A DNA stretch of 59,803 nt, the filler included, from Basidiobolus ranarum (taxonomy: Eukaryota): NCBI GenBank assembly GCA_040143965.1. It is 3 parts of 3 records of this genome, joined end to end, with 100 filler letters (N's around TTAATTAATTAA, not from the genome) between each part and the next. Parts side by side here need not be neighbours in the genome. Positions count along the whole stretch, not along the records: positions 39,961 to 59,803 come from JASJQH010000241.1; 2 more parts are not named here. One strand, written 5' to 3'. A model generated the notes under the pieces. That model saw only the letters and a program-made list of their open reading frames with translations. It had not been told where the DNA came from and did not search any database. The translations under genes and the position numbers were made by a program. Positions 37,397-58,851 of the stretch are shown here, in pieces; the first letter of the stretch is position 1, and each line of letters begins with the position of its first letter.

Positions 37397-37889
37397 ATAA
37401 CAAGAAATAACTGGAAATGTGACTTAACATAGACTGTCCGTCTGATTTAAATAAATCACTGGAGCAATAGCAAGTCCAATGGGTAACCTTCAATACTATA
37501 TTACTACCCCTGGTTACCCCTAGCTTCTATTTATGATCTAATGACCAGAAACAATGACACTGAATATATTGTTGTAAGGAATCGACCGGAGATGAATCGG
37601 TGACGTTTGTATTGCGTTTGGATTACTCTGCTATTCAGTGCATTCATTCTTAACATGTTGGCATCTATGGTCGCTTGGTAGTTCATTCGTGGTATTTAGG
37701 GTTGTTGAGTTTCAATTACATCTTGGTCAAAGTCACAACGGTGTGACTCTATATTGGGTAGAAGCCAATGAAACCCTCGTGTCCCTGGATATTGATTACG
37801 CAAAAACCTCCTGGTTATTCAGGGTTTTCTATAAATATATTCATCAATTTCAAATATTTTACACATCTTACTATTGTACCTTGACTATC

Positions 37890-39377
37890 ATGAAAGGGTG
37901 GAAACCAGTCGCTGCCTTACTATGTTCCTTGCATGTTGGGTCCTCCTATGCCTATCAACATGTACTCAAGTCTACTAAACAAATGACAGTCCAAACTGAA
38001 TTCTCACTACTGGACGAACTAGAGAGGACTTTTGGAATGTCTCCAGCTAGCAAAGAACTCCAAGAAACCCAATGGATAAGTGTGGCTACTCATGAATCTC
38101 TCGAAGGCTATGCACTACGGGTGAAGCAACCACAACTATGCGATTCTTCAGTGAAGCAGTACTCCGGTTACCTTGATATAGCTCAAGACAAGCATTTCTT
38201 CTTCTGGTTTTTCGAATCTCGTAGTAAACCGAAAAAAGACCCGATCATTCTCTGGCTAAATGGTGGTCCTGGATGTTCTTCTTTCACGGGTCTTTTAATG
38301 GAGCTTGGCCCTTGTCGAGTTAAAAAAGATGGGTCAGGAACCGAGTTCAATCCACATTCATGGAACAGCAATGCCAATGTTATATTCCTGGACCAACCAA
38401 CAAATGTTGGCTATTCTCATGGCAGCAAGACGTATGGATCTTTGGCAGCTAGTAAAGATGTCTATGCCTTTCTTCAGCTCTTCTTTAAAGAATATCCGGA
38501 ATACTCCAAGCAGGATTTCCATGTCTTCGGTGAATCATACGGTGGTCACTACGTACCAGCGATCGCCAAGACCATTCATGAAAATAACAAAAAAGGAGGG
38601 AAGAAGTTCAAACCAATCAAGCTGAAGAGTATCGGTCTCGGGAATGGGCTTACTGATCCTTTAACTCAGTACAAATACTATCCTAAGATGGCGTGTGATA
38701 ATTCTTATGGCATCAAAGCCGTGTCTCAATCATCCTGTCGCCAAATGGAGCAATCGTATCCCAAGTGTGCAAATATGATCCGGTCATGCTATGATCGCTC
38801 CAATTCAATGTCTTGTGTTCCACCTACTTACTATTGCAATCAAAACTTAATTCAACCTTTTCAGTCATCTGGACTAAATATCTACGACATTCGCACCAAA
38901 TGTGAGCCAGGAGCACAGCTGTGCTATTCTATTCTCAATGGACTGACAAAGTATTTGAATCGACCAGAAATCATGTCGGAGCTGGGTGCCGAAGTGAAAG
39001 GGTTTAAATCGTGTGACACCTCAGTGTACTTTGGCTTTCTTATGGCTGGTGATTGGATGAAACCATATCATCTTAATATCCCTGAACTCTTGGAAGATGG
39101 CATAAGAGTGCTCGTCTACGCGGGGGATGCTGACTTCATTTGCAATTGGTATGGTAATAAGGCTTGGGCCATGGAGTTGGATTGGAGTGGTAAGAAGAAA
39201 TTTAACAATGCTAAGGACACCAATTGGACAGTCCATGGAGAACCGGCTGGTGAGGTTAGAACAGCTAAAGGCCTCACCTTCTTGCGAGTATTCGAGGCAG
39301 GTCACATGGTACCCTACGATCAACCAGAGAACGCCCTGGATATGATAAACCGTTGGATACAAAAATCGAAATTTTAA
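37890..39377 (+). CDS. PRC1: Carboxypeptidase Y-like serine carboxypeptidase (S10), intronless
   Basis: Signal and propeptide from ATG 37890, WLNGGPGCSS, GESYGGHY (catalytic Ser), AGDADFICN and AGHMVPYDQP. TATAAATA at ~37831. Confidence 0.93.
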   Translation: MKGWKPVAALLCSLHVGSSYAYQHVLKSTKQMTVQTEFSLLDELERTFGMSPASKELQETQWISVATHESLEGYALRVKQPQLCDSSVKQYSGYLDIAQDKHFFFWFFESRSKPKKDPIILWLNGGPGCSSFTGLLMELGPCRVKKDGSGTEFNPHSWNSNANVIFLDQPTNVGYSHGSKTYGSLAASKDVYAFLQLFFKEYPEYSKQDFHVFGESYGGHYVPAIAKTIHENNKKGGKKFKPIKLKSIGLGNGLTDPLTQYKYYPKMACDNSYGIKAVSQSSCRQMEQSYPKCANMIRSCYDRSNSMSCVPPTYYCNQNLIQPFQSSGLNIYDIRTKCEPGAQLCYSILNGLTKYLNRPEIMSELGAEVKGFKSCDTSVYFGFLMAGDWMKPYHLNIPELLEDGIRVLVYAGDADFICNWYGNKAWAMELDWSGKKKFNNAKDTNWTVHGEPAGEVRTAKGLTFLRVFEAGHMVPYDQPENALDMINRWIQKSKF

Positions 39378-39860: not shown

Positions 39861-39960
39861 NNNNNNNNNNNNNNNNNNNNNNNNNNNNNNNNNNNNNNNN
39901 NNNNTTAATTAATTAANNNNNNNNNNNNNNNNNNNNNNNNNNNNNNNNNNNNNNNNNNNN
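39861..39960. other. Assembly spacer (N44-TTAATTAATTAA-N44)
   Basis: Same linker as 19887-19986. Confidence 0.97.
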
Positions 39961-40232
39961 TGAAGTACTCAGTCACTCAACTCTTACTCATTCTCTCCAC
40001 AGCCTTTGCTGTCAATGCCAGTATACTTGAGCGCTCGTAAGATCCGAGTTATAAGGGAGTAAGCCATGGCGGAGGTGGTGGAAGAACAAACAAATTTGGA
40101 GGTGGTCACGGTGATGACTATGATGATGAATACGATGGTGATGGTAATGGTGGGAAATACGGTCATGGAAGAGGTAAGAAATACGGAGGTGGAGGCGGAG
40201 GTCATGGTGACGACTGTGATGATGATGAATAG
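39961..40232 (+). pseudogene. Small secreted Gly/His/Asp-rich protein with an in-frame stop
   Basis: One frame reads [M]KYSVTQLLLILSTAFAVNASILERS*DPSYKGVSHGGGGGRTNKFGGGHGDDYDDEYDGDGNGGKYGHGRGKKYGGGGGGHGDDCDDDE*. TAA at 40038-40040; the A of the ATG falls in the gap. Confidence 0.65.
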
Positions 40233-40261
40233 GATCGAGGAGACTACAAAGACGTTTTGCT

Positions 40262-40489
40262 AATGGAATATACTTAGAGGTTTGAAGATATATATATTTT
40301 TTCAAACTTGTGCTAGAAGCCCCAAACTTTGCACACATGTTCCTGGGACCTTCATTAACACATTCTATATGTTTGTTTGCTTATATCTTGACAAAACTAT
40401 AAATGTCTACTCTCTACTCAATAAGTGAAAACCGTCCATTCTTCTAGTTCTCTAAATCACTTCCAACAAACTCTCAATATACTTCAACA
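40262..40489. mobile_element. 5'-truncated LTR (same family as 8625 and 9433)
   Basis: Shares AGAAGCCCCAAACTTTGCACACATGTTCCTGGGACCTTC...TACTTCAACA. Confidence 0.82.
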
Positions 40490-41923
40490 TAAGCATTTGG
40501 CTGATAGAACTCTGAGTATAGATAAATATTGGTTTACTGTTATAAATACCAACTCTGTTAGTATTTCTACTTTTGTTTGCAAAAGAATAGCCTGAGAAAT
40601 GTCAGCCAGGGAAGCCTATTTGCGAAACAAATTTTCAATGGATATACAACTTCTTTGCCTCCAAAGACAAAATAAAGCCTCAAATACCTTCATATTTTAA
40701 GACCAGGCCTCAATTTTTGCTGAGTTCCATAATCTTAGCTTTGCTAGGGATCCCGTAATTAAGAAAGCAGCTGTACAAATTCTGATATCTCCAGAAATAC
40801 ATGGTAAAGCTACCAAGTGAAATTACTAAGCTTACTGTTAAGCTATCTGGGGTTTATATTTCAAAACATGTTGGGAGTAAAGCAAATACACCAGCGCTGC
40901 TAACTAATTCACTATTTTTGCATGTAACTGTAAAATTACAATATCACTGCATTCACTTCATGATTCTGTTTTTGCACTAGAATTTTACATTTCAGGCTAT
41001 ATTTCCAAACACTACGTTTTATATAATCCGAATCTTTGAAAATAAAGTTTTGGCAACACACTGTTTGCTAGCACCAACCTGATCAGACAGGATTAATCAA
41101 TGATGAATGAGAATCTAGCAATTCATCCGAATTTCAGTATATTAAGTTTTTCCATATTACCAGCTATTCCATGCTTAATGGATATGAAGATGACATCTTT
41201 TAGTACATCCTATATGGCAGAGATGTATAAAAGTGAATCTGTTATGGGCGTTAGTGTACAACTAACCCCATATATTGCTGGTGTATGTGTTCTAGGCTGC
41301 ACTGGGTTATCATAAATATCAATTTACTCTACTGATGATTTACACTATTCGCCAAGAACCAGCAATCATTACGATAAATGGATTTACTCAGCCAGCTTCA
41401 GGTGAATAGCAATACCTTCCATTAGAGAGTTCTCATAGAGTCAAGAATCACCCTACCTACGAACTGTATTACATTACTTATCTCTCTGAAAACTCGACTT
41501 TGACGAGTTATTTCCGTTAGTGAGTTTCAAGTAATAGCGCCCATTAATCAATGTAAAACTTGGTTACACGAGCACATTAACACGAGCACATCAACATGTT
41601 GTAAAAAGAATAAAAGAATATATAACAACAAGAAATTACCAGCAACTAAGCATTGAATAGCCACACGAGCAGATAGATATGTGGCAATGGGAACAGAATG
41701 ATATATAGCAACAAGAAAGGATCAGCAACGTTAAATGCTATTGTAATTAAGGCTTAGCTACGAGAAGAGAACAGCATTATTACTATTAGCAGCATTTACC
41801 CGTTATTGATCAATAGATTTGAGTTAAGAATATTGTTAAAGAGAGTGGGAAAGTGAGTTCACACGGCTTTCGTAGTAATATTGGTTCTCACATGAAACTT
41901 CTATAGCAATATATAAGGATAGC

Positions 41924-42887
41924 ATGAATTCTATAGCACTGAAAATGCTATCTGCTAAAATGGCCAAGATCATTACTCTCGTCACTACGTGTCTGCTCCT
42001 ATCTTCGACATCTGCTGCAGCGGTGAAGAACTCTACTGGTGGATTTAGTGCATTGCTGGATTATGTGGATAGTCATAACACTAAACGAAGTCTTCATCAA
42101 GACACTCCGAACCTAGGCTACTCAGCTGAGATGGAAGGCTATGCCAGAAATGCTGCATCTCGATGTATCTTTGAGCATACAAGATCGGGAGAGAATATTT
42201 ATGCTTTGTTTGGCGGCAACGCACCTAGCTTTTCAGATGCCATTAATTCATGGTACGCAGAGATTAGCAAATACGATTATAACAATCCCGTTTTTGGCAT
42301 GGCTACGGGTCATTTCACACAAGTAGTGTGGAAATCCACTGCAAACGTCGGTTGTGCGAGTAATTATTGTCAAAATATGAGAATCAACAACGAGTACAGA
42401 GCCGGTTATATTATCTACTGTAATTACGATCCTCCTGGCAACTATCCAAATCAGTTCAGGAACAATGTCTTACCTCTGAAGGGAAGTAAGTGCTAGGTTT
42501 TTATTAGTATGCAACCCATCAGTTATGCTGTTAGTAGTTTTCTAATTGAGTTAATTAGATGCACCAAATCCTGGTACATGCAGAGAACGCTATGTAGTTG
42601 AATCAGGTGATTATTGCTTCGCAATCTGGTCTAAGTTTGGTCTATCGGAGTCGGAATTCTACGAGCTCAATCCCGGAATCGATTGTTCGAAATTGCAGGT
42701 AGGACAGTCAGTCTGTGTGGGTAAGACTATTGCTAACTGCAGTGGTTACTATACTGTTCGATCGGGAGACTCGTGCTATGCTATTGCTACCCAGAATGGT
42801 CTCTCTCTACAGCAGTTCTACAACTTGAATCCTGGCTTGAACTGTGATAATTTACAAATCAATCAAAGAGTTTGCATTCGTCAATAA
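41924..42887 (+). CDS. Secreted CAP (PR-1/Pry-like) protein fused to two C-terminal LysM domains; 2 exons
   Basis: CAP motifs HNTKR, GENIY, GHFTQVVW and CNYDPPGNY. Intron 42486-42558 (GTAAGT...TAG) joins in frame to YVVESGDYCFAI...LNPGIDCSKLQVGQSVC and YTVRSGDSCYAIA...LNPGLNCDNLQINQRVC. The true start may be a downstream Met. Confidence 0.88.
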
Positions 42888-42943
42888 TCCAAGTAAACAA
42901 ATAAATTTGCGCACGGTTTGAGGAGATAGTTTTAATAAATTTG

Positions 42944-42983
42944 AAGCATCTACCTCCCTGATTAAAGCATCTACCTCCCTGAT
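42944..42983. repeat. 21-bp tandem duplication
   Basis: AAGCATCTACCTCCCTGAT occurs twice. Confidence 0.85.
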
Positions 42984-43312
42984 CTAAATTAAAATTCATG
43001 ACTATGTTTTTGATCATTATATTACTCTAAATCCATGTGGAAGCGCTATCTGACACCAAGCGACATATTGATTATACTTAACCAATACTGGCGTAATTAG
43101 GGTTAGGGTTAGATGTATGTGAACCTTGATTTATTGCACCCTATTATGACCAAATCAAGGAATGATGCAGCAGTAGAATAAAGGCATATTGAAGAAGCAC
43201 AATCTTCGATGATATGATATATTGTTTATGCTTGACGGATGATAATTTGTAAATATGTAGAATGAATTTTGAATGCTTAATATTAGCATCCAATATTAAA
43301 TGATGAGTTTGA

Positions 43313-43391
43313 GAATAGTATACAAGGAGTCACACTGCGTCGGTAATTTGGAATAGTATACAAGGAGTCACACTGCGTCGGTAATTTGGAA
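43313..43391. repeat. 38-bp perfect tandem duplication just after the NRPS stop codon
   Basis: GAATAGTATACAAGGAGTCACACTGCGTCGGTAATTTG occurs twice. Confidence 0.92.
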
Positions 43392-43392
43392 A

Positions 43393-46300
43393 TCAGACTT
43401 TAGCCTCTAAGTAATTATCCTCACTATAACTCTTCAATGGAATACCAGCCCAACTAGAATTCGATGGTAAGGATTCTCCTTTCATTACTAACGATAATCG
43501 ACCTATAGAAACACTATCTTCAAGATTTGCCCCATACAAGATTACTGATGCACTTTGAACATTGCAACGGTTCCCAATCTTCAATTTGTCCAACTTCATG
43601 ATACGGTCTTCGAAGAGGTGTGTCTATTAAAACGTATGGTCAATTTTATACTATCAATACATAGAACAATGATTCTATTCACCTGGAGGATTACACCTGT
43701 GCCAATGCTCACATCATCCTCAATATCAATCAAATCGGCTTCACTAATCTGCCATGTATCCATCCATACCCGCTTCCCAATCTTACTCCCAAGTAATCTG
43801 AACCAAACACATAAAAGGGAGGTACCACGTAGATTCTGAATCAGCATTTTGTTGGCAATTCCTTCCTGGAGTGCTGTTGCAAGTTCAGTTCTGAATGATA
43901 ATACTATTAGAAAAACCTCCCTTGAAATAAATACTAGTATTAATTTTCTCTAATTAAAACTTCACCTCCACACAAATGAACTCCAAAGAGGCACTTCACG
44001 CTTAGTGTAGACCCCTATCAGTGCCCACTTCATAATAAGGACAAAGCAACAGCCGCAGATCCCTATTACCCCACTCAGAATTGGATATATGAAAATGAAG
44101 GAACTAATGAGTGCCCCTTGAGATAGTTGATCAAATAAGCCGTTCAAGCCATTCACATACACATCTGGTAGAATGTTACGTTGTGAAGATCCTTGGTAGA
44201 GTATCTCAATTACAACTGTAAGAGTTACCATCAAAGTTACGGTAACTATGTTTGGTAGGAATACGCGCCAAAACTCAATCGAATAGCGTGTTACATAGAG
44301 CCAATTCGTTGGATTATAGGTACGCTCTTTAGGCCAATTTAATACTGGTGCCTGCCGAATGGGAAGAAAAAGTGCCGGAGAGCCGAGCCATGAAGAATTG
44401 TCAACAATTGACTTTACATTATGCCCGGGTGTCGAGAGCACACCTAAAAGGCAGTCCTTGCCTGAAAGATAAATTAACACCAGGTATAAGAAGAAATCGC
44501 TTCAAATTTATAACCGGTTTTCTACTTACCCATTGCCACACCTGAAGGAAGAAGAGCACTATTTCCAATAAATGATCTATCCCCTACAACAGTGCGGTCA
44601 ATAGTAATGCATCCTCGATAAACGCACGGTGGACCTACTACAGCAGTATCTGCAACAAAACACCCATTTCCTATGGTTAGAAGATTGGGAGATATGTATG
44701 TGACAGTCGAAACCTCGGAAGCTTGACCAATATTAGCTCCAAGAGTGCGTAACCAGTGAGGCGCATAAAGTGTTCCATAAATTGAATTGATCATATCGAG
44801 TGAAATCTGCATCAATACATCCACAGACCTAATATTGTGATCGTCAAAGTTAGTTCAAAATACTGATGAAATAAGTTCTACTATGACTAACCATTTTCGT
44901 ATGTAGAAGATGCTCCGTAGTTTGTATTCGCCAGGTGATATTCTGGGTAAGACTATACACTTTAGAAGTGCAGTTACAAGGCAAAACAGTATCACCGAGA
45001 TTATAGCGACAAATGGAGAAGTCACGACCACCGTGACATATGGATTGATAGTGGAAAAGAGCACTGGAGTGTATTCCAACACGATGATACCTATTTTGAA
45101 AGTAATTAGATACTGAATCGGGCCTAAACGTCATTGCATTCACTTACTAGTAAGTGTTGGTAATAAGCCCAAAGTTCCATTAAGAAATGCTACAGTTATG
45201 AAATGCAACAGGCAACAAAACCATAATTTAATGAAGGAATCGGTGGTTTCTTTGTCCGTTTCAATTATATTTTCTACGAATTTCGCAGGCGATCCTCCCC
45301 ACCGTTCGTCTTTAAGTATTCTCTCATTTTCTTGGAGTGCTGATACGTCATCCAACATGGCTCTCTCTTCAAGCTGTGAGTTCAACCCTAGATTCGATCT
45401 ATTTCCAACGCGCGCACCTGCCCCTACGTGTATACCAGTCCCTATAATAAGCCACCCGTCTTCAACTTTGTACCCTAGTAGATAAGCATTTAAGCCAATA
45501 GATGCCTCATCCTCGATTGTCAGGAGGTCAAAACAGCTCACATGCTGAGTGCCAATATACGCAGTCATATTTACACGCGCGCCCATCAGAATGTAGAAAA
45601 TGTTCAGCAATGGAGAACCTTCGAGGTAGTTTAGTTTAAGTGCCCCCATAATACGTTGAATAACCCACCAACGCCAGTAGTAGTATCCCCAGACAGGCCA
45701 CCTCCCCGGTCGATAACGGCCAATAAGAATCCATTTGAGGGTAATAGCAATAAGTGACATCCAGAAGAAATCCAAAATAAAGACAAAGAGTATAACGACA
45801 ATTGATACATCGGTGAATTTGTACAAGATATACAGGATAGATATTGGCAGCGATGTGACGACAAACACCGTTGATATTGCTAGGATTTGGCAAATAAAAA
45901 GACCAATAGCATGGATATATCCAGGTATGGGTGGAAAGGAAGCTCTGTCTGAGTTGGCTAACTTCTCGATATCAATGTCATTCAGTTCCCCTTCATTTCT
46001 CTCTGGCGATTGGAGAGGCAATTTTGATAAAGCAGTAGTTGAGCAAACTCCCGAGTCAATGGTATGTGCAAGCTTCTCCAGTGTATCGTATTGATAGATA
46101 TGGCTCATCGAAATACCTCTTGTGCTCTCACTCTTGCGCAATTCTGAGACCAACATAGCAGCAAATAGAGAGTGACCGCCAAGAGCAAAGAAGTTATCGG
46201 ATATAGAGATTGTTTTTCCTACAAAGTAGCGTGACCAAATCTCTACAAGCATCGCCTCTGTCGGGGTTCGTGGTGCAATGATTACTTTACTGCTGTCTTG

Positions 46301-48700
46301 TTTTTCAATGAATTTTTCATCCAATATTTGTGGGAGGTTCTTTCGATCCACTTTTCCGCTTGGTAGGGTTGGAAATTCTTCTACGACCTGGAATACGGTG
46401 GGCACCATATAGGACGGCATGGTTTTCTTGAGATACTCTTTGAATACTTCTTCGTCATATTCCTTCGCTCTGTTATTGAGAATAATATATGCTACTAGCT
46501 GCTCCACATTAAAAGAATCCACATGAACATTGACAACAGCCCCTTGAATTTCTTCACAATGCAGTAAGGTAGATTCTATCTAAAATAGAGGTTAGAAGTC
46601 ACTAGGATATATAGTCATCATATTCGCAAGTATCTGTTACCTCAGCAAGCTCAATCCTATAACCACGTAATTTTACTTGAGTGTCTATCCGACCCAAATA
46701 TTCAATTTCTCCATCAGAAGTGAAGCGAGCAAGATCACCTGTCCGGTATAATCGGCCTTCTGCAGTCAGCAACTTGTTTTGTATGAACTTACTATTAGTA
46801 AGCTCAGGCTGATTTTGATAACATCGTGTGACACCACGACCTCCTATAACCAGCTCTCCTGCAGCACCGAGAGGTTGGAGCTGACCATGAACTGATAAAA
46901 TGAAAGCAGAGTACCCTGGTATTGGACGTCCGATTGTTACAATATTGTCCGACGAATGGCATTCCTTCCATGTTGCAATCACCTAATATACAAAACATTT
47001 GTAATAGCTTGGCACATGTTATTATAAGAAATCACTTACTGTAGCTTCTGTTGGACCATAACTATTCACAACCCGGCATTTGGTACTGAATCGCTCGACC
47101 AGAGTTTTAGGGCAAGCTTCACCACCAAGGATGAGCAACCTAAGACTTGGCAACTTTTCCTCTTCTGATAGCATACTCAGAAGAGTCGGTACACAACTCA
47201 GCACAGTTACACCTTTAGCCTCCAATATATCTGAAAGGCCGGGTCCTGGTCTTTGAGTAGCCGGGACTAGAGTACCACCAACCATGAATGGCAACCATAT
47301 TTCTTCTATAGAAGCATCAAACGCAAGCGAAAACTGTTGATACACGCGATCTTCTGCGTGGAGGCCGAAGATATGATACTCTGCCTGTATCAGATTTACG
47401 GCATTTTGATGCTCGACAGCAACCCCTATGGTAACACCATTAATTTATTTTTGACTGAAATAATGAAACAAAATAAATGAATATTACCTTTTGGCCGTCC
47501 TGTAGTTCCGCTAGTGTAGATCATATATGCAACATCAGATGTCCGCAGTATCTCAGCAGGTAGTTTAAAGTCCTCAGAGGAAGAAATTTCCCATTTTAGA
47601 CAATCCTCCAAGAATATAGTCTGGCATGTCAGAGTTTTTTCGAATCCTTGACTTTCAGCGATTACTCTCTCGGTAAGTAACAACTCTGCTCCAGAGTCTT
47701 TAAGAATATAGTCTACGCGCTCAATTGGACACGTTGGATCAATTGGAACATACGCAGATCCGGTCTTTAATATAGCAAGCATGGCAATATAAGCGGCTGG
47801 AACTTGCGGCATTAAGAGGCCAATAAATTTCCCAGGCCCAGTAGCGTAGTTTTCATAAAGATGATAAGCAAATTGAGTGGAAATACTTTCTATGTCTTGA
47901 TATGTAAAGATAGTGGTTTGGCTTTTGGAATCCTCATATAGTATAGCGGTACGATTAGAATGCATTCTAGCGGTATTCTCAAATATTGTATGAAGAAAGG
48001 TCTCATTGGGCGGAGAAATTTGGTGCCATGGAATTTGAGAAGCAGCAACTGGTGGGGTAGAAGACCAAGTTGAAGAGGTCAGAAATTCTACTTCTGAAGT
48101 AGGAAGAATATCGATGTGAGATATAGGGATGTTTGTTTGCTGAGTAAAGGCCTTGAAGAGGGTATTCCAATGGCCGACAATATAATCATCTTCATCAAGC
48201 CCAAATAGCAACAATTTGGTGATAGCTATGGTACAGATCAAGCCATCATCCTCTTCGATACAGCTAACTTGCAGGCTTCTCTCTGTATTCTCGGTTACTT
48301 CTGAATTGCTCTCGCAACAATTCAAACCAATGATCAGGTCAGAAATTGAACGTAAATGGGCATTTTGTATTGCCTCCATTATAGATTTTGAAGTGATTTT
48401 CTCGATCACCTTTACTACATCAAATACAGTCATTTCAGGTTGTAAAGTGACGGATACTTGCAATGAATCACCCTGAAGTCCGATAGGCGAGAAATGAAGA
48501 GCAATAGTTTCTTCATTTGTATATCTGTAAACAAGGATGCACATGTTTGCGGCAACCACCATAGATAGTATTAAGAGTTCATTTGCCAGATCTAGGAATG
48601 GCAGCTCTGAACGTAAAGCTATCAATAGAAGCTCACGTTCCGTTTTAGCGAGGGTGTGGTTCGTTTTGAACGGATCAGATGATATGGTTTCCATTTGCAT
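43393..48700 (-). CDS. Pls/PosA-family membrane-bound single-module NRPS-like enzyme (A-T plus TM / beta-helix repeats); 9 exons
   Basis: A-domain cores YTSGTTGRPKG, FDAS, NSYGPTE, GELVIGG, LYRTGDL, GRIDTQVKLRGYRIEL and LPSGKVDR. T domain FFALGGHSL. Three TM-flanked repeats follow (MGARV, LGANIG, LGSKIGKRV), ending LQTHLFEDRIMK...WAGIP. Introns ~47426-47487, 46983-47038, 46580-46640, 45088-45146, 44829-44890, 44463-44529, 43892-43965, 43627-43682. Confidence 0.93.
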
Positions 48701-49170
48701 GAACTAGTCTGTGAAGAGAAATAAAATTAGCCACCAGATCCTGTTTTCCAATATTGATTACAATCAAATACCTGTCCTTCAGTTCTCTAGTAAATGAAAG
48801 TCAAAGTGAAGGATTAGTTAAAAAATGACTAGGATAAAGATCTCGGGACATGATATTTATGAGAGAGACTAGATAGAAATGGGTCAGAACAAGGGATCAA
48901 AAACCCTTTAGTCCCCTTATTCCCCCCCCCTCTCGTTTATGATCTATACGAGCAATGATAATGAAAGACGTGCATGGATCTCACCTCCAATGATCCTTTT
49001 ATGACAGTATGTTATGCTCTAGAAATAGCTACATATATGCATTGGTAAGCGCAGGTAAGAACAATGTATGGTGCAATGATAACTGAAGAACATTTAGACA
49101 ATGTAACTTCATATATCGTGGAATGTATGTAGTGCCAGATCGTGAGCCAAGGTCCGACAGCCCCTGGTCC

Positions 49171-49224
49171 GATGGAACAAATCTAATGGTCAAAATAGAT
49201 GGAACAAATCTAATGGTCAAAATA
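49171..49224. repeat. 27-bp perfect tandem duplication
   Basis: GATGGAACAAATCTAATGGTCAAAATA occurs twice. Confidence 0.92.
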
Positions 49225-49688
49225 GGGTGTGAGCAGTCATTAATGAATGTTTGCTAAATGCTCGTCTTGCTCTGGGAGAATGATGATATGGTTTCCTGAT
49301 ATCCTGGTTTCAGGATCACTTCACTGATTTGAATAACTGAATGACGTAATCTGTGTAAGTTGGGAATAGTTAGATGGTATCCACGATTCTTGAGATACAT
49401 GCAGTATACAAATGACATCAATGAGTGACTGAAGTCGTGTTGTATACCTAAGTCCTCTCAAATGAGAACAGTTCGAATATCTCTCTTCGTATTCTCTCCT
49501 ATGTCACCCCAGGCTCTGCGCGAAAATCCCCCTGTATCGGTCTATTTTAGGATAAATACATACTTATACCGGGTTTCTGGATTCTTAATTGATACAGTTG
49601 AACTTTGATCTCGCCAAAGATGCATAAATAGACAGATCAAAGCCTCAACCTCGTATCGATATTTGATAATCCAGAGTTATACACGGTC

Positions 49689-49761
49689 TGAGGTGGATAT
49701 AGTTGAGGTGGATAGTTGAGGTGGATATAGTTGAGGTGGATAGTTGAGGTGGATATAGTTG
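49689..49761. repeat. Minisatellite with alternating 15- and 13-bp units
   Basis: TGAGGTGGATATAGT and TGAGGTGGATAGT alternate for five units. Confidence 0.92.
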
Positions 49762-50324
49762 CTTCTTGGTTAAGAATCGCAACTCCGATGCCGGTCAGAT
49801 CTGTCAAAATTTAATCTTTGCAAGATCCACGAGAGAATGCTACCTCTGCCAGAAATCGAGATGCTAGCCTAATCCCCATATCGGAGATTGTAAAAAGGAT
49901 GTAGTGAAGATGGACATCGCATGTATTTTGATCCTCGCAATTCTTCAGATTATTATTAATGACCACTTTTACAGCGGATTTGATCAGCCAAGATGGTTCC
50001 TTCTAGAAATGGCTCTTTGATGACTCACTGTCTCTTTCTGCTCCATACAACTGCTTACTAAACATCTCATAATATAGCCACCTAGCTACTAGAATTCATA
50101 TAAGCAAAGATGTGCATGGTAAAGTGTGAAACCTACATCATTTGTGACTCCATCTAACCTAGTCGGAATATCGTATAGTAGCAGTGCCAGATACCACTTT
50201 CTGACTTTTACAGCATAAATCTTTAACTAGAAGGTACTCATTTGTCTAATATATCGCACATCAACAAGCAACTAGCTAGTAACTGTTATCATTGTACAAT
50301 GCAATTAGAGGCTTAAAATAACAA

Positions 50325-50406
50325 TTTTTTTATTAAATATATACCATTACTTCTGCTACTCTAACTTTTTTTATTAAATATATACCATTGCTTCTGCTAC
50401 TCTAAC
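50325..50406. repeat. 41-bp tandem duplication
   Basis: TTTTTTTATTAAATATATACCATT(A/G)CTTCTGCTACTCTAAC occurs twice. Confidence 0.9.
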
Positions 50407-50799
50407 CTGACACTTCTTAACCTTCAACTATAGGCCAAAATACAATCCCAACCCCCTCTGTTATTTCTAGTTAGCAACCTCATATCTAGAGTTGAACAGG
50501 AAGTGATTATTTCTCATAAAACCCAAAAAATAGAGGATTTCGGTAAAAAGAGATATTTTAAACAATCGTCTGCGAAAAGATCAGGAAAGAAGTATTCATG
50601 GATCTCATTGGTATTCATTGACACACAAGCAGTCTTGAGATTGTAAATTGGAAGTCCAAGCCTCGATAGAATTTACTAGTACTTGCTGATTAATCACTGT
50701 GCACGTCATCTTATTTGCACCTTACCTCATATAGCGCCATCAGAATCAAAGGTATAAAAAAGGATGAATGTGTGGATTCTCCTCAATCCAAACTTCAAC

Positions 50800-51588
50800 A
50801 TGAATTCAAATCTTAAGGGTTTAACTGCAGTGATCTCAGGTGCTAGTGCTGGTATTGGACAAAATATTGCCGTGGCTTTGTCGAGAGAAGGGTAAGTGGT
50901 TTTCTTCCAGAAAGTACAGGACCTCTGTCTAATCTATAAATAATGTAGATGCCGTGTTGCCTTATTAGCTCGTCGCGAAAACTTACTTCAAGATATTAAG
51001 AAAGAGTGCAGCGATGCTGGTGCAGAGGAAGTAATTGCAATTCGATGTGATGTCAGCTCTGACGAGGAAGTGCACGCTGCAGTGGCACAAGTGAAGTCCA
51101 AGTTTGGCCAAGTTAACATTCTTGTGAATAATGCTGGGGTTGGCGGTGGAGGCAACATGCTGACATCCAAATGGGAAGACATAGATCGAGCTCTCATGAT
51201 TAATCTAAGAGGTTTGATGCTTGTGACCCACTCTTTCCTTCCATTGATGAAGGACACAGGTCGTGGTCATATCATTAATATAGGATCCGTAGCTGGTAAA
51301 CAGACTATGGGAGGTGCTAGTGATTACTGTGCCTCAAAGCATGGCGTTGTGGGATTCAGTAAATCTTTGTTCGAGGATGTCCGTGAATTGAACATCAAAG
51401 TTAACGTCGTCAACCCAGGATACATTCGCACACCCATGACAGAAAGTACGAAGAACGTCGATCCTGAGAAATTTATCCAACCTGACGATATAGCTGAAAC
51501 CATTTTGTTCTTATGCAAATTCCCAAAGACTGGATGTCCAGTTGAACTCGAAATTAGACCTCAATTCAGTCCCTATGTAAAATCATAA
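50800..51588 (+). CDS. Classical short-chain dehydrogenase/reductase (copy 1); 2 exons
   Basis: SGASAGIG Rossmann motif, ARR (NADP-type), NNAG and catalytic YCASK. Intron 50892-50948. Confidence 0.92.
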
Positions 51589-51895
51589 ATCTAAGTGTAA
51601 ATGTGAAATACCTCATTAAAAGAAAGATTAACTAAGTAAAGCGTGGTTAGTAACATTGTATCAAACTGTGTAAATGAGTATTTCCTCTATTGGAAACCTC
51701 CTGCCGAGTAACCTTAGGAAGGTAACTACATTTGCCTACTGTGGAATTCATTGAGGTACCGAATCTCAATTAGTCAACAGATCATCATGCACGTCATATT
51801 GGCTTCAATATATCTCATCTAACACCTTGTCATCATGATATAAATATAAGGCCGAGATGTGATAGTTCTTCTCATCACTCCACTCTATATTAAAC

Positions 51896-52684
51896 ATGAA
51901 TTCGAGTCTCAAAGGTTTGACTGCAGTGATCACTGGTGCTAGTGCTGGTATCGGGCAAAGCATTGCCGTAGCTCTATCGAGAGAAGGGTAAGTGGTTTTC
52001 TTCCAGAAAGTACAGGATTCCTGTTTAATCCGTATATGGTGCAGATGCCGTGTTGCCTTACTAGCTCGTCGCGAAGACTTACTTCAAGATATTAAGAAAG
52101 AGTGCAGCGATGCTGGTGCGGAGGAGGTACTTGCCATCCGATGCGATGTCAGCTCTGACGAGGAAGTACACGCTGCAGTGGCAGAGGTGAACACCAAGTT
52201 TGGCCAAGTTAACATCCTTGTGAATAATGCTGGGGTTGGCGGTGGAGGTAACATACTGACATCCAATTGGGAAGATATAGATAGAATCATCATGGTTAAT
52301 CTAAGAGGTTTGATGCTTGTGACCCACTCTTTCCTTCCATTGATGAAGGACACAGGTCGTGGTCATATCATTAATATTGGATCCATAGCCGGCAAATTAC
52401 CGATGGGTCTTACCACTAGTTATTGTGCCTCAAAGCATGGCGTTATTGGATTCAGCAAATCTTTGTTCGAGGATGTCCGTGAATTGAACATCAAAGTTAA
52501 CGTCGTCAATCCCGGATACGTTCGCACCTCCATGGCCGATATTGTTCCGAACACCTCACCAGAGAAATTTATTCAGACTTCAGATATCGCTGAAACCATC
52601 TTATTTTTATGTAAATTTCCAACAACCGGCTGTCCGGTTGAAATAGACATCAGGCCTCAATTCAGCCCATATGTACAGTCTTAA
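51896..52684 (+). CDS. Classical short-chain dehydrogenase/reductase (copy 2, tandem paralog); 2 exons
   Basis: TGASAGIG, NNAG and YCASK; same intron position as copy 1. Confidence 0.92.
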
Positions 52685-52831
52685 CATACCCACAATCTTG
52701 CCACTAATCCAACTGAATAAATTCTACATATTGATGCACACATGTCGTGTTGGTATATTCACCGATAATGTACAAGTTCTGATTTGTCTAATGTTTATTG
52801 CGAAACTATTATTAATCAACACACATGATCA

Positions 52832-55007
52832 CTAACGATACCACATTTTCCACTTCTCTAAGGCACTCTCATCTTTGAACTCAGGTTTGAAATGGATCTC
52901 TTTGATTTCAACGAATCCTTCATCCACCTGTGGCTCTTGTAGTCGTGAGGTAAAGGTCTTGAAAGCAAGATCGGGAAGAACAGGCCGTGGCTATATCATT
53001 CAAAGAAAAGAACTTTGTAAGGGGCGGACTTGGCTAAAAAATCACTTAGAAATAGTATTACCTCGCCAACTCCACTGAGTGCTCGGAACATATTGTTATG
53101 CATAGCCAAAGCTTCGTTTGCCAAGAAACGGAAGCAACGTATTGGCACATTGTGTTGTTTAGCGATTTTGATGTAATGAGCTCTAGTTGCTTGATCGGGA
53201 TTGGTATTATCTGTGAAGATTGGAATGTTAAAGTTGTTCTTGACTGGACACTAAAATCCTCTACATACCGATGACCACCGAGCTTTTATTAGCAACAGCC
53301 TTTTCACAAGCATTGATACACTTATCCCTGGTATGCAGGGTATCCTTAAGATTGATAGAATGTCAGATGTCTACAACTGTAGAGACGTGTTGAGCATGAA
53401 GTACCTGGTTGATGTGAACATAGCCTTCAGAGACAAAATATTGCTTAGCAAAAGTGGTTTTACCACTGGCAGGGTGTCCAACAAAAATTACGATCTCTTG
53501 TTTATCTTTATCTTGCGGTACTAATGGACTGGTTGTAGGTGTAAACAAAGGGACTAATCAAATCGTTAGCAATCAGCAGTTCAAAGTTTCCAACAAATCC
53601 TTCTAACTTACGATCATTAGGATATACTTTAGGGTCGAACTCTCCGAAAGAAAATGGAGCTGCTGCTTCTCCGAGGAAGTATTCCTCAGGTGTATAAAAT
53701 TTAAGGTTAAGGTTGGCTGCGAATTTCCTAGATTAAAGAGAGGATCTTAGTGGATGTTGAAAAAAATGGACCCATTTCAAATATGATCTTTTACCTATCT
53801 GAATCAGAAAAATCTTTTTTAACTCCCTGCTTCCAGCCAGCAGGTCTTCCAGCTGCATCTCCAACATAAAGACTGGATTCAACATCTATGCAAGACAAAG
53901 CGATTGGTAAAATTGGGATGTTTTAGAGGCAAGAAAATGGCCATACCAATTTCAATATTATCGTTAGCTTCTTTTACTAGATGTTCCCACATTCCTCCAC
54001 ATGGCTTTCGATAATGATCGTAAGCTGTAGAGACAAATATTTGGATTGGCACTTCAAGCTTAAAATAAATAAAAATTAATATATATCACTGGCTTATCAT
54101 AATAGTGTGTAGTAAAGCATATTCCTCTACGAGATAAACAAGAAGAGATACGTTACATTTCTAACTATATTTTGAACTTTAGTCATGAACATTGCTCTTT
54201 TCGGGCTAATCTTGCCGTTTCTCGGTTTCAATCCTCCTTGATTTGAAAAGAGTACAATTTTGTATCTACGACGGATAGAAAGAAGGTTAGTATGAATAAT
54301 CAAGAATTTTCCTAGCTCAAAAGTCAGGTTACAGATAGAGTGACCTTTTTCTAAAGTCAACTAAAGGAACGTATGAATTTTACCCATTCTGATATAGCTC
54401 CTCCAATTTATCTGGGATGACTTCAAACAGAAACCGCCAGTCGTCCGCATTCTTGGCGTGAACATGTTTACCTTTTACTGTTATGATAGTTCCATCCTAA
54501 GTCAATTATAAAAATGTTAACGTCAAGACCATATATAATACAAGCAGTAGAGCATATATATATAGTGAAGCGGTAGAAGAAATATTCACCAAATCAAACG
54601 CAGCAATTTTAGCTCTCCCAGATGTATGGTCGGTTTCACCGATAAGAAGAGAATTATGTTCTTTCCAAGTTACAGGTTCGGTTGATGTATTATCGGTAGC
54701 TTGCTTCTTGGAGAAGAATGGGTGTACTTTTTTTTCAGCTAAAATATTAAGCGGTCAATGAAGATACTTTTGATTTATCCATAGCTTATTTTCTTGGCAA
54801 TAAAACCCTTACGAAGATTGCCATCAGCGGTATCCACATTCTCTTCTCTGGTTTTTCTTTTAGTTGATTGCTCTATTACATAAGTATGACATAATTTCGT
54901 GCACCGTATTAGAGTTTAATGATATGAATAAAAGACTGTGCTAAGTCCCACTACTAAGTATATCTCATATACGAAGACCTACCACTTCTTTTTGGCTCCG
55001 TACTCAT
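52832..55007 (-). CDS. PNKP: Polynucleotide kinase 3'-phosphatase; multi-exon
   Basis: HAD motif [33 protein letters not shown] and kinase P-loop GHPASGKTT. The start codon is tentative. Confidence 0.9.
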
Positions 55008-55137
55008 GCTTATTCAAAGTATTTACTATTAAACTATATGATAAGCTTTATTAACGACGAGTGAGTTCGCTATCTAAAGAGATAATTGTAGTGTAGAAAA
55101 AGGGATCAAGAAAGTTCAGTTTAAACACACCAAATAA

Positions 55138-55147
55138 ATGACGTCAT
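55138..55147. promoter_or_regulatory. Palindromic CRE/ATF site upstream of PNKP
   Basis: ATGACGTCAT lies about 130 bp before the putative ATG. Confidence 0.4.
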
Positions 55148-55785
55148 AGATTTCGATTATACCCACATACAATTGGAATAGGCCAGACATGATTCTCCTT
55201 GACTTCAAGTAAATGGAAAGGATAGTAGTTATTAAGTAACGACTAGAGATATGTTTGGATTAAATACTGAATCCAATCCATTTATTAAATGCTCATTGTA
55301 GTCATCCATCAGAGTTGATAACAGAGAATGATTTACCAATGGAGACTTGATGAAGAATAATCGCCAATCACCTCGCTTCACTCATGCACTCATAAACCAT
55401 GTGACCAATCAGGCTTGTTGATAAATCCAAATTGGCAAATTCTATAATTAACCAATGTTATTGTTTACTTTTGCCTGTAGAGAGTGAATTACTGGACGTA
55501 TGGATTTATTGCAAATCTGTCGAGATGGCTTAAATCATCTCATTTGAGGTGTTTCGTTTGGCACAGTGGCAGTGGTCAAGATACAACACTACTCAACATT
55601 AAACTGTGGAATAAAAGACAGAGAGAATATAGAAAGTGACGAAAGATAGCTAATCGTAAAAATCTACATGAAGGAATAAACAAAAAGCAAGTATTTTCAA
55701 GGAGATGGAGTAAGCTATATATACAAAGTAAGACCAACATCAATCCACTGTTCGATTGATTACAGAAATATTGCATGAAACCAAG

Positions 55786-58559: not shown

Positions 58560-58646
58560 AAATATGCTATTCAATGTCTGTCATTTACTTGCTCAATTAA
58601 AATATGCTATTCAATATCTGTCATTTACTTGCTCAATTAAAATATG
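58560..58646. repeat. 40-bp tandem duplication in the SDH1 promoter
   Basis: AAATATGCTATTCAAT(G/A)TCTGTCATTTACTTGCTCAATTA occurs twice. Confidence 0.88.
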
Positions 58647-58851
58647 TGATCCCGGATCCGTGCCATTTATACATGACACGACAGGTATGTTTCGTTCTAC
58701 CCCGGATCTATCCGATTTTTGGTTTTTGAAGTATACTTTTAAGCCATTACTGGCCTTCTGGTTGGATGGTGATTTTCTCCTGGTTCCTACTTATTGGCAT
58801 TTACCTTGTAACTTTTCCTCTTAACATTTTACCTAAAGACGAACTTCCAAG

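What the first reader, a model, noticed from the sequence alone, without database searches (positions are those of the whole stretch)
43393..48700. Intron-containing epsilon-poly-L-lysine-synthetase-like (Pls/PosA) NRPS in an early-diverging fungus
Seen in sequence: a single A-T module with no TE or reductase, followed by about six TM segments interleaved with three acetyltransferase / left-handed-beta-helix-like repeats ending QTHLFEDRIMK. Established: this is the architecture of Streptomyces Pls, a membrane-bound isopeptide homopolymer synthetase (TIGR02353-type terminal domain); an ascomycete example is known from Epichloe. Inference: this fungus may make a cationic antimicrobial homo-poly(amino acid). 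The gene may be an old bacterial acquisition that has since gained eight spliceosomal introns. The spliced reading frame appears intact.
Basis: partly seen in the sequence, partly recalled or inferred. Interest (0 to 1): 0.88.

Follow-up and report, generated by a model that had tools for sequence, protein, structure and literature searches.

The report
Bacterial-type polylysine synthetase gene in Basidiobolus
An intact, intron-containing gene of the gut-dwelling fungus Basidiobolus ranarum encodes a membrane enzyme of bacterial origin that most likely strings lysine into an antimicrobial polymer; it is a new fungal member of a known enzyme family.

Summary
On the minus strand, 48700-43393, nine exons and eight GT..AG introns (57-75 nt) splice to an open 1601-codon frame. 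The product is letter-for-letter the NCBI protein K7432_005843 of Basidiobolus ranarum.

It passes the curated Pls/PosA model TIGR02353 (537 bits, cut-off 423). It has one A-T module, six hydrophobic segments in three pairs and three homologous beta-helix modules. The substrate pocket reads DAESIGSVIK. That is the lysine type, 8 of 10 positions as in the actinobacterial Pls-type clade.

The four Basidiobolus proteins form one clade inside bacterial diversity. An AU test does not exclude grouping with actinobacterial Pls (p 0.19).

The B. meristosporus homologue 300898 is already printed as an unnamed NRPS-like HGT candidate (PMC7466969). Fungal homologues of the family are also known (PMC7179176, PMC10522769). 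I found no paper linking Basidiobolus to polylysine.

Expression and product are untested. Verdict: a new member of a known kind, of moderate interest.

The parts
43393..48700 (-). Whole gene: start codon to stop codon, 9 exons and 8 introns, 1601 aa. Equals B. ranarum K7432_005843.
47488..48700 (-). Exon 1 (aa 1-404, ends in phase 1): N-terminal extension and the A domain up to core motif A3.
48011..48700 (-). N-terminal extension, aa 1-230. Relic C-terminal lobe of a condensation domain; no HHxxxDG motif and no Pfam hit.
   Evidence: 0 Pfam families at E<=10. McyB C1A1 aligns from residue 141; the AF2 model's best PDB matches are C-A didomains over 440-460 columns, against 171-180 columns for A-only structures; hhalign to bacterial long forms, Prob 97, E 1e-10.
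47426..47487 (-). Intron 1, 62 nt, GTAATA..AG, phase 1.
47040..47425 (-). Exon 2 (aa 405-533): A-domain pocket region holding Stachelhaus positions 1-7 (D441 A442 E445 S481 I503 G505 S526).
46983..47039 (-). Intron 2, 57 nt, GTAAGT..AG, phase 0. It lies between pocket positions 7 and 8.
46641..46982 (-). Exon 3 (aa 534-647): begins with pocket positions 8-9 (V534 I535), then A-domain cores A6-A8.
46580..46640 (-). Intron 3, 61 nt, GTAACA..AG, phase 0.
45148..46579 (-). Exon 4 (aa 648-1124): A sub-domain (K723), T domain (PP-binding 769-821, Ser784 in GGHSL), TM1, TM2, soluble module C1 and TM3.
45091..45147 (-). Intron 4, 57 nt, GTAAGT..AG, phase 1.
44892..45090 (-). Exon 5 (aa 1125-1190): TM4.
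44829..44891 (-). Intron 5, 63 nt, GTTAGT..AG, phase 2.
44530..44828 (-). Exon 6 (aa 1191-1290): C2 beta-helix, with the Hexapep hit at 1270-1297.
44462..44529 (-). Intron 6, 68 nt, GTAAGT..AG, phase 1.
43966..44461 (-). Exon 7 (aa 1291-1455): end of C2, TM5 and TM6.
43891..43965 (-). Intron 7, 75 nt, GTGAAG..AG, phase 2. A 45-nt alternative was rejected.
43683..43890 (-). Exon 8 (aa 1456-1525): first part of C3, ending with the Q of QTHLFEDR.
43624..43682 (-). Intron 8, 59 nt, GTGAAT..AG, phase 0.
43393..43623 (-). Exon 9 (aa 1526-1601 plus stop): THLFEDRIMK with family-invariant His1527 (window 43618-43620), then the rest of the C3 beta-helix.
43438..45832 (-). Span encoding the TIGR02353 Pls/PosA terminal domain (aa 897-1587 = profile 27-694 of 695), introns included.

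Best explanation
The locus is a functional, spliced gene of Basidiobolus ranarum for a Pls/PosA-family membrane synthetase of cationic homopoly(amino acid)s. Inferred mechanism, by homology with Streptomyces Pls and Acinetobacter PosA: (1) the A domain adenylates L-lysine; (2) lysine is loaded as a thioester on the phosphopantetheine arm at Ser784 of the T domain; (3) the C-terminal domain transfers the lysyl unit to the side-chain amine of a free lysine or of the growing, non-covalently held chain. That domain consists of three TM hairpins, each followed by a left-handed beta-helix, probably packed as one pseudo-trimeric unit with one active site around His1527 in the third module. The expected product is an epsilon-poly-L-lysine-type isopeptide polymer released outside the cell. 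The gene came from a bacterium carrying the long-form variant, which has a relic condensation lobe ahead of A-T. Transfer predates the split of B. ranarum and B. meristosporus, after which the gene gained eight spliceosomal introns. Shown here: gene structure, family membership, domain order, pocket residues, retention of conserved residues and nesting among bacterial sequences. Inferred: substrate, linkage, the role of His1527, export and expression.
For: Gene model: open 1601-codon frame, identical to the deposited protein. Family: TIGR02353 537.4 bits against a cut-off of 423.1, one stretch, residues 897-1587 to profile 27-694. TIGR01733 scores 401.6 against 317.4. Exon by exon, the profile is covered in order (26-244, 262-321, 325-420, 425-562, 564-632, 633-694). 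Architecture. Pocket: alignment to PosA (8g95) and S. albulus Pls (7wew) gives D, A, E, S, I, G, S at positions 1-7. A 198-row alignment gives DAESIGSVIK. The same extraction returns the published PosA code DMEHNGTVSK for 8 loci, which validates the method (PMC10522769). All 19 rows of the actinobacterial Pls-type clade read DAESIGTVVK. The paper states that Lys-activating members have Ala at position 2. Integrity: 116 of 122 columns that are >=95% conserved in 191 bacterial members are kept, A 59/61, T+linker 9/10, C-terminal 48/51. GGHSL with Ser784, K723 and His1527 are invariant in an 18-row alignment. Origin: of the 120 best hits, 4 are Basidiobolus, and all 9 others that carry an organism name are bacterial. 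587 of 589 candidate stretches in bacterial genomes encode relatives. The Basidiobolus clade has 100 support on a stem of about 0.9 and is nested in bacterial rows. It is sister to 8 long-form bacterial proteins including two Pedobacter species, SH-aLRT 94. N-terminal extension homology: hhalign Prob 97, E 1e-10 to one bacterial long-form group, and Prob 79, E 1.6e-5 to the sister group. Literature: 300898 (= P0002) is an HGT candidate. Mechanism of Pls: PMC9205021 passages. Pseudo-threefold model of the terminal domain: PMC10522769, section 13.
Against: No product chemistry exists. The pocket differs from the characterised Pls type at positions 7 (S for T) and 9 (I for V). No member of the clade that holds the Basidiobolus proteins has, to my knowledge, been characterised, so lysine is an extrapolation. 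Outside the pocket, the A domain resembles ordinary NRPS A domains more than Pls or PosA: whole protein 1amu 306 bits, 7wew 245, 8g95 220; exon 3 LgrA 196 bits against 7wew 51. Six family-conserved columns are changed, three of them in the polymerising domain. TM segments rest on a Kyte-Doolittle scan, not a dedicated predictor. Donor: the sister relation has support of 94 only and appears only when long forms are included. Without them the position is a polytomy. The AU test does not reject Basidiobolus plus actinobacterial Pls (delta lnL 22.9, p 0.19). No ascomycete Epls sequence could be fetched, so its position relative to this gene rests on published identity values only.
Confidence: 0.6

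Rival explanations
1. Same enzyme class but another monomer or linkage: delta-poly-ornithine, poly-diaminobutyrate or poly-diaminopropionate, poly-beta-lysine, a D-configured polymer or an arginine-type polymer.
For: Family members with small pocket changes make different polymers, and one homologue activates arginine (PMC10522769, sections 10-11). The Basidiobolus pocket has S at position 7 and I at position 9, unlike characterised Pls. The clade holding it has no characterised member that I know of.
Against: Position 2 is Ala, as stated for Lys-activating members. Orn types have Met and the Dap type has Phe. Positions 1-6, 8 and 10 equal the actinobacterial Pls-type code. The published beta-lysine code DGESISVVNK and the arginine-type code DSECYGGVTK differ from DAESIGSVIK at 4 and 5 of 10 positions.
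Confidence: 0.2
2. The A-T module loads lysine, but the membrane beta-helix domain transfers it to another acceptor such as a lipid, a wall polymer or a small amine. It would then be an aminoacyl transferase, not a polymerase.
For: The terminal domain is built from acyltransferase-like left-handed beta-helices. No structure of it has been solved: no PDB match beyond residue 831. Notes of this scan describe stand-alone relatives without A-T in Asgard archaea with unknown substrates (unchecked AI notes).
Against: All characterised fused A-T-terminal-domain members named in the papers read here make homopolymers. 48 of 51 family-conserved terminal-domain columns are kept.
Confidence: 0.07
3. The gene is a silent or decaying relic of an old transfer with no present function.
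For: No expression data could be obtained. Six conserved columns are changed.
Against: The 4.8-kb frame is open across eight introns. 116 of 122 conserved columns are kept, as are the catalytic-type residues. Homologues are retained in a second species at up to 67% identity, and triplicated there.
Confidence: 0.06
4. Origin rival: the Basidiobolus genes descend from the actinobacterial Pls lineage, the one Epichloe Epls is close to, or from an ancient fungal gene. They would not come from a Bacteroidota-like long-form donor.
For: The AU test does not reject Basidiobolus plus actinobacterial Pls-type rows as one clade (p 0.19). Both are long branches. No ascomycete sequence was in my trees.
Against: Free ML trees separate them by supported branches: 98*, 95* and 96*, and 100* and 97*. 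Best-segment identity is 29-30% to the two Pls-type-clade Streptomyces loci, L068 and L069, against 37-39% to the top seven loci, L001 to L006 and L008. Epls is 51% identical to S. albulus Pls. The N-terminal extension is shared with bacterial long forms. 79 of 80 bacterial loci match only from query residue 189 onward. 300898 was selected for having no fungal BLASTP hit.
Confidence: 0.12

Closest known systems
[quoted passage not shown]
   Same: A-T, then six TM segments interleaved with three tandem soluble domains, with no C or TE domain. The pocket reads D-A-E-S-I-G at positions 1-6.
   Different: About 30% identity to the two Streptomyces loci of the Pls-type clade, L068 and L069. It lies in a different clade in the free trees. 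It carries an extra 230-aa N-terminal relic condensation lobe. Pocket position 7 is S, not T, and position 9 is I where the Pls-type clade has V. The gene is eukaryotic, with 8 introns.
Epichloe festucae Epls (fungal epsilon-PL synthetase, PMC7179176)
   Same: A fungal gene of the same family and architecture, with an experimentally shown epsilon-PL product.
   Different: Epls is 51% identical to S. albulus Pls, and its homologues are mainly in Clavicipitaceae. The Basidiobolus gene is far from that lineage by identity, so it is probably a separate acquisition. This was not tested in a joint tree, because no Epls sequence was available to me.
Acinetobacter baumannii PosA (delta-poly-L-ornithine synthetase; PDB 8g95-8g98)
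   Same: Same family model (TIGR02353) and architecture. Asp at pocket position 1 and Glu at position 3 are conserved.
   Different: The PosA pocket is DMEHNGTVSK, against DAESIGSVIK here, so 5 of 10 positions differ, including the chain-length-determining position 2.
Basidiobolus meristosporus CBS 931.73 proteins P0002 (K493DRAFT_300898), P0003 and P0004
   Same: Same clade at 100 support, up to 67% identity, same N-terminal extension, and the same or nearly the same pocket. 300898 is printed as an NRPS-like HGT candidate.
   Different: There are three copies in that species. All three are sister to the single B. ranarum copy seen here. They are not named as Pls-type in the main text of that paper: 0 occurrences of 'Pls' and 'transmembrane'.
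Long-form bacterial Pls/PosA-family proteins, e.g. Pedobacter cryoconitis P0085 and P. lusitanus P0101
   Same: An N-terminal extension ahead of the A domain (AMP-binding starts at 191 in P0085, the only Pedobacter protein scanned, and at 209 and 223 in two other long forms). TIGR02353 at 626.6 bits for P0085, the only bacterial long form scored. Sister group. Two members of that sister group (P0083, P0116) have the identical pocket DAESIGSVIK.
   Different: Bacterial and intronless. 37-40% identical to the long forms in the 18-row alignment. Uncharacterised.

Membership tests
Pls/PosA-family non-ribosomal peptide synthetase (NCBIfam TIGR02353) | Terminal-domain HMM score above the curated cut-off over the full profile | tested here: met
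   537.4 bits against 423.1; residues 897-1587 to profile 27-694 of 695, in one stretch. Exon-wise coverage is collinear.
Pls/PosA-family non-ribosomal peptide synthetase (NCBIfam TIGR02353) | One adenylation-thiolation module ahead of the terminal domain; no functional condensation, thioesterase or reductase domain | tested here: met
   Pfam AMP-binding, AMP-binding_C and PP-binding only. TIGR01733 scores 401.6 against 317.4. The N-terminal 230 aa give no Pfam hit and look like a relic half of a condensation domain.
Pls/PosA-family non-ribosomal peptide synthetase (NCBIfam TIGR02353) | Six transmembrane segments in three pairs alternating with three tandem soluble (beta-helix) domains | tested here: met
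   A Kyte-Doolittle scan shows three pairs of hydrophobic segments. The three modules are mutually homologous. Hexapep hit. No dedicated topology predictor was run.
Pls/PosA-family non-ribosomal peptide synthetase (NCBIfam TIGR02353) | Carrier serine and A-domain catalytic lysine present | tested here: met
   GGHSL with Ser784, and K723, are invariant columns of an 18-row alignment.
Pls/PosA-family non-ribosomal peptide synthetase (NCBIfam TIGR02353) | Pocket with Asp at position 1 and Glu at position 3 for a diamino acid | tested here: met
   D441 and E445 align with PosA Asp217 and Glu221 (residue roles from PMC10522769).
Pls/PosA-family non-ribosomal peptide synthetase (NCBIfam TIGR02353) | Makes an isopeptide-linked homopolymer | not testable with these tools
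   Needs expression and mass spectrometry.
epsilon-poly-L-lysine synthetase in the strict sense (Pls/Epls) | Lysine-type pocket (Ala at position 2) | tested here: met
   DAESIGSVIK against DAESIGTVVK in all 19 actinobacterial Pls-type rows, so 8 of 10 identical. The Ala rule comes from the PMC10522769 passage.
epsilon-poly-L-lysine synthetase in the strict sense (Pls/Epls) | Belongs to the clade of the characterised Streptomyces Pls | tested here: inconclusive
   The free trees place it elsewhere. The AU test does not reject the grouping (p 0.19). S. albulus Pls itself was not in my trees; Streptomyces loci L068 and L069 stood in for it.
epsilon-poly-L-lysine synthetase in the strict sense (Pls/Epls) | Product is alpha-carboxyl to epsilon-amino linked poly-L-lysine | not testable with these tools
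   No chemistry is available.

The most novel reading that the evidence does not exclude
Basidiobolus, a fungus of amphibian and reptile guts, acquired a long-form polylysine-type synthetase from a Bacteroidota-like bacterium, independently of the Clavicipitaceae. It secretes a cationic isopeptide polymer as a weapon against gut microbes. This would be the first such polymer from an early-diverging fungus. The three copies in B. meristosporus would diversify chain length or monomer. The conserved relic condensation lobe would be a working part, for example an adenylation-activating or acceptor-holding domain, rather than debris.
Probability: 0.3. Interest if true: 0.6.

Novelty: new member of a known kind. 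Interest (0 to 1): 0.45.

Why it matters
Cationic homopoly(amino acid)s such as epsilon-polylysine are used as preservatives and are studied as antimicrobials and delivery agents. Known fungal producers are ascomycetes of the Clavicipitaceae. A lysine-type synthetase in Basidiobolus would extend the chemistry to early-diverging fungi. It would give a named function to one of the many bacterial-derived NRPS-like genes of this genus. It would also suggest a concrete molecule for fungus-bacterium competition in the herptile gut.

The gene is a clean case of a bacterial gene that became fully eukaryotic. It has eight introns, where PMC7466969 reports a median of zero introns for HGT candidates. 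The long-form subfamily with a relic condensation lobe is uncharacterised in bacteria too.

Tried and rejected
- Whole genome: none is held, so further copies in B. ranarum could not be sought.
- Pfam on the N-terminal 235 aa at E<=10: nothing.
- Protein atlas search of the C-terminal half: only bacterial Hexapep clusters, with no help on eukaryotic distribution.
- Earlier findings of this scan: none for this genome or sequence. A word search gave only Asgard split-module notes.
- The listing of cluster members on 10 long-form relatives: no organism names, so their taxonomy stays unknown apart from the two Pedobacter proteins.
- Co-transferred cluster: tblastn of the same-contig neighbours (two SDRs, CAP, LysM, FAD-binding) against 80 bacterial loci with up to 3-kb flanks hit an SDR in 1 of 80. 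I rejected a conserved cluster.
- A 45-nt version of intron 7: rejected.
- AU test meant to exclude an actinobacterial-Pls affinity: not significant.
- Ascomycete Epls sequences could not be obtained with the tools, so there is no joint tree.
- Supplementary tables were closed: Table S4 and the files of PMC7466969, and Supplementary Table 2 of PMC10522769. They may already list these Basidiobolus proteins.

Full report
**1. What is in the sequence**

- The finding lies on the minus strand. Stop-to-stop ORFs there give nine pieces whose translations read in order as an NRPS A domain, a carrier domain and a long hydrophobic/beta-helix region.
- I listed all GT..AG pairs that keep the frame between neighbouring pieces. 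At each junction I chose the pair that restores a continuous conserved motif.
- The introns are 62, 57, 61, 57, 63, 68, 75 and 59 nt long. Their donors are GTAATA, GTAAGT, GTAACA, GTAAGT, GTTAGT, GTAAGT, GTGAAG and GTGAAT.
- The spliced CDS is 4806 nt, giving 1601 codons plus TGA with no internal stop.
- A database search with exon 4 returned a 1601-aa protein, P0001, named by NCBI 'hypothetical protein K7432_005843 [Basidiobolus ranarum]'. It is identical to my model over its whole length. The gene model is therefore independently annotated.
- The organism is Basidiobolus ranarum, phylum Basidiobolomycota in the NCBI taxonomy.
- For intron 7 a 45-nt alternative also keeps the frame. The 75-nt version is the one in the deposited protein, and it keeps the HMM register.
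- The window is not one piece of DNA. Runs of 44 N flank the linker TTAATTAATTAA at 19887-19986 and 39861-39960. These are joins between contigs.
- The contig carrying the gene is 39961-59803. Its 19,843 bases equal the 'longest contig' recorded for P0001. Only genes on that stretch are true neighbours.

**2. What the protein is**

- Full length, it scores 537.4 bits on NCBIfam TIGR02353 (Pls/PosA family, terminal domain; curated cut-off 423.1). One stretch covers residues 897-1587 against profile positions 27-694 of 695. It scores 401.6 on TIGR01733 (amino-acid adenylation domain; cut-off 317.4).
- Taken exon by exon, exons 4 to 9 cover the TIGR02353 profile in order without overlap. This also supports the splice sites.
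- Pfam gives AMP-binding 240-588, AMP-binding_C 647-723, PP-binding 769-821 and a Hexapep hit at 1270-1297. There is no condensation, thioesterase or reductase domain.
- A hydropathy scan shows six strongly hydrophobic segments in three pairs: about 867-900 and 891-934, 1095-1129 and 1139-1177, 1356-1381 and 1405-1443.
- The three 'hairpin plus soluble domain' modules are homologous to each other, with BLAST E 3e-10, 3e-17 and 7e-8.
- This is the architecture described for Streptomyces Pls (PMC9205021, passages). It is also the one modelled for PosA as one pseudo-threefold domain of three left-handed beta-helices on a six-helix membrane bundle (PMC10522769, section 13).
- No solved structure matches beyond residue 831.

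**3. Substrate pocket**

- Exon 2 aligns best with the solved A domains of PosA (8g95/8g97, 93.7 bits) and S. albulus Pls (7wew, 84.6 bits).
- In the PosA chain the printed numbering is two higher than in the paper: the paper's Asp217 is chain residue 219. With that offset, PosA Asp217, Met218, Glu221, His260, Asn280, Gly282 and Thr304 align with D441, A442, E445, S481, I503, G505 and S526.
- Positions 8 and 9 are the first two residues of exon 3 (V534, I535), at the fixed spacing after the YGPTE motif. Position 10 is K723.
- In a 198-row alignment the code is DAESIGSVIK. The rows were all stored proteins and locus translations of at least 1000 aa; 2 of 200 were left out as too short.
- The same columns give DMEHNGTVSK for eight loci. 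That is exactly the code printed for PosA (PMC10522769), so the extraction works.
- All 19 rows of the actinobacterial clade that contains two Streptomyces loci read DAESIGTVVK. S. albulus Pls itself shows D-A-E-S-I-G-T at positions 1-7.
- The paper states that lysine-activating members carry Ala at position 2, where PosA has Met and the diaminopropionate enzyme has Phe.
- The pocket here is therefore of the lysine type, with two conservative differences (T to S, V to I).
- Exactly the same code occurs in two B. meristosporus paralogues and in four bacterial or metagenomic long forms. The third paralogue has DAESIGSVVK.

**4. Is it likely to work?**

- I took columns that are at least 95% conserved in 191 bacterial family members. 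That set is the 198 rows minus the four Basidiobolus rows and three aberrant long-branch rows, L038, L039 and L077.
- P0001 keeps 116 of the 122 such columns: A domain 59 of 61, T and linker 9 of 10, terminal domain 48 of 51.
- The carrier serine (GGHSL, Ser784), the A10 lysine and the QTHLFEDR histidine (His1527) are invariant in an 18-row alignment.
- In the alignment of the three modules, only module 3 has this histidine. Module 1 has Tyr and module 2 has Pro at the aligned place.
- That fits one active site per pseudo-trimer. The idea came from unchecked notes of this scan on archaeal split modules. It remains an inference.

**5.

- The A3 core motif sits at residue 395, against a median of about 180 in 200 relatives. 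About 230 residues therefore precede the A domain.
- They give no Pfam hit even at E 10.
- PDB sequence matches to C-A constructs start inside this region. McyB C1A1 aligns from query residue 141 to chain residue 393.
- I built an AlphaFold2 model of exon 1 from a 15-row alignment, with mean pLDDT 75.6. Its best PDB matches are condensation-adenylation didomain structures: McyB-C1A1 at E 1e-19, then Txo1/2, SrfA-C and TycB. These align over 440-460 columns.
- A-only structures (TycA, PheA) align over only 171-180 columns.
- I read the extension as the C-terminal lobe of a condensation domain that has lost the catalytic N-lobe. The alignment ranges were not printed, so this is well supported but indirect.
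- Profile-profile comparison shows the extension is homologous to the extensions of bacterial long forms. Against P0027, P0038, P0095, P0069 and P0012: Prob 97, E 1.1e-10, 151 columns. Against the eight-member sister group: Prob 79, E 1.6e-5.
- It therefore came with the transferred gene.

**6. Origin**

- Of 1478 proteins with E<=1e-10 among 7998 scored candidates, the best 120 are listed. Four are Basidiobolus: one from B. ranarum and three from B. meristosporus, at 57-58% identity over exon 4. The nine others that carry an organism name are all bacterial, at 31-43% identity. The rest are unnamed metagenome proteins.
- In one genome per bacterial species, 587 of 589 pattern matches encode relatives. 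The best 80 are 29-39% identical. They span Planctomycetota, Bacteroidota, Cyanobacteriota, Bacillota, Chloroflexota, Pseudomonadota, Actinomycetota and others.
- Three trees agree that the four Basidiobolus proteins form one clade (support 100) on a long stem (about 0.9). The clade sits inside a bacterial group with DAESIG-type pockets, apart from the actinobacterial Pls-type clade.
  - FastTree, 136 rows. Rows under 1150 aa were left out (L044, L051, P0050, P0052), and P0061-P0120 were not included.
  - IQ-TREE quick, 57 rows.
  - IQ-TREE quick, 53 rows with 18 long forms added.
- In the last tree their sister is a 99-supported group of eight long forms that includes Pedobacter cryoconitis and P. 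lusitanus (SH-aLRT 94). Without the long forms the position is a polytomy.
- Against my reading: an AU test does not reject a tree that unites Basidiobolus with the actinobacterial rows (delta lnL 22.9, p-AU 0.19). Both are long branches, and the model was LG+G4 without mixtures.
- No ascomycete Epls was available to me. That Epls belongs to the actinobacterial lineage rests on the printed 51% identity to S. albulus Pls (PMC7179176, section 6). For comparison, best-segment identity here is 29-30% to the two Pls-type-clade Streptomyces loci, L068 and L069.
- The three B. meristosporus copies group together, as sister to the B. ranarum copy. The acquisition therefore predates the split of the two species, and the copies multiplied later, or were lost in B. 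ranarum.
- The gene's G+C (0.36-0.42 per kb) is like the rest of the contig.
- Same-contig neighbours are a CAP-domain ORF and a two-LysM ORF just beyond its 3' end, two tandem short-chain dehydrogenases (85% identical) and an FAD-binding oxidoreductase. They show no conserved linkage with the bacterial relatives: 1 of 80 loci has an SDR nearby.

**7. What is already known**

- Tabima et al. 2020 (PMC7466969; passages and section 17 read) list B. meristosporus gene 300898 as an 'NRPS-like' HGT candidate with best hit 'firmicutes'. This is my P0002. Candidates were chosen for having no BLASTP hit to fungal proteins, normal coverage and fungal neighbours.
- Their main text never names the Pls family: 0 occurrences of 'Pls' and of 'transmembrane'. 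They report a median of zero introns in HGT candidates, so eight introns is unusual.
- Patel and Gulick 2023 (PMC10522769; abstract and sections 8, 10, 11, 13 read) report family homologues in 'several fungal genera'. Their fungal clusters are under 1500 residues, and 'Basidiobolus' does not occur in the main text.
- Purev et al. 2020 (PMC7179176; section 6 and passages) showed epsilon-PL production by Epichloe Epls.
- Searches for Basidiobolus with poly-L-lysine found 0 papers.
- Broader searches listed none linking the two. The 15 papers shown of 2,179, and the 15 shown of 109, have no joint occurrence.
- The family assignment and lysine prediction for Basidiobolus therefore seem not to be in print in the searchable library. 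The HGT status of the homologue and the existence of fungal family members are in print.

**8. Verdict**

- This is a new fungal member of a known enzyme family, most likely an epsilon-polylysine-type synthetase acquired from a bacterium with the long-form variant.
- Product, expression and donor remain open.
- Interest is moderate.

Noticed in passing
window 19887-19986 and 39861-39960: Two joins of the form N(44)-TTAATTAATTAA-N(44). The window is three contigs laid end to end, so genes left of 39861 are not neighbours of the finding.
   Followed up: yes
window 3-5686 (-): Fungal-type fatty acid synthase beta subunit (FAS_N, SAT, Fas1 helical, meander, DH, MaoC, start of acyl transferase). 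It runs off the window start and is on another contig.
   Followed up: partly
window 50944-51585 and 51992-52681 (+): Two tandem short-chain dehydrogenase ORFs, 85% identical to each other. Both start at Pfam profile position 25, so a short first exon is probably missing from each ORF.
   Followed up: partly
window 41879-42493 and 42555-42887 (+): A CAP (cysteine-rich secretory protein) ORF followed by an ORF with two LysM domains, convergent with the synthetase gene and ending about 500 bases from its stop. Possibly one secreted CAP-LysM protein.
   Followed up: no
window 43308-43391: A 38-nt unit repeated 2.2 times (97% matches), directly after the stop codon of the synthetase gene, in its presumed 3' UTR.
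   Followed up: no
P0087, P0103, P0107: Some bacterial family members (1537-1648 aa; Geothrix, Acidobacteria) carry a Pfam PF01648 domain. From memory this is the 4'-phosphopantetheinyl transferase family, which would mean the carrier-activating enzyme is fused to the synthetase.
   Followed up: no
window 46641-47423 (exons 2 and 3): Uneven similarity within the A domain. Exon 2 (pocket) is closest to PosA and Pls (94 and 85 bits, against 55 for LgrA). Exon 3 is far closer to LgrA (196 bits over two matching stretches, the better 109) than to PosA (57) or Pls (51).
   Followed up: partly
L053: A contig labelled as a Klebsiella pneumoniae metagenome bin encodes a protein nearly identical to P0013. 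It groups tightly with P0029, which NCBI names Limisphaerales. The contig is probably mis-binned.
   Followed up: no
window 37596-39374 (+), 30465-31175 (+), 16462-17478 (-), 11097-12041 (-): Ordinary eukaryotic genes on the other two contigs: serine carboxypeptidase S10, RasGAP, a Kelch-repeat protein and an SPFH/Band 7 protein.
   Followed up: partly
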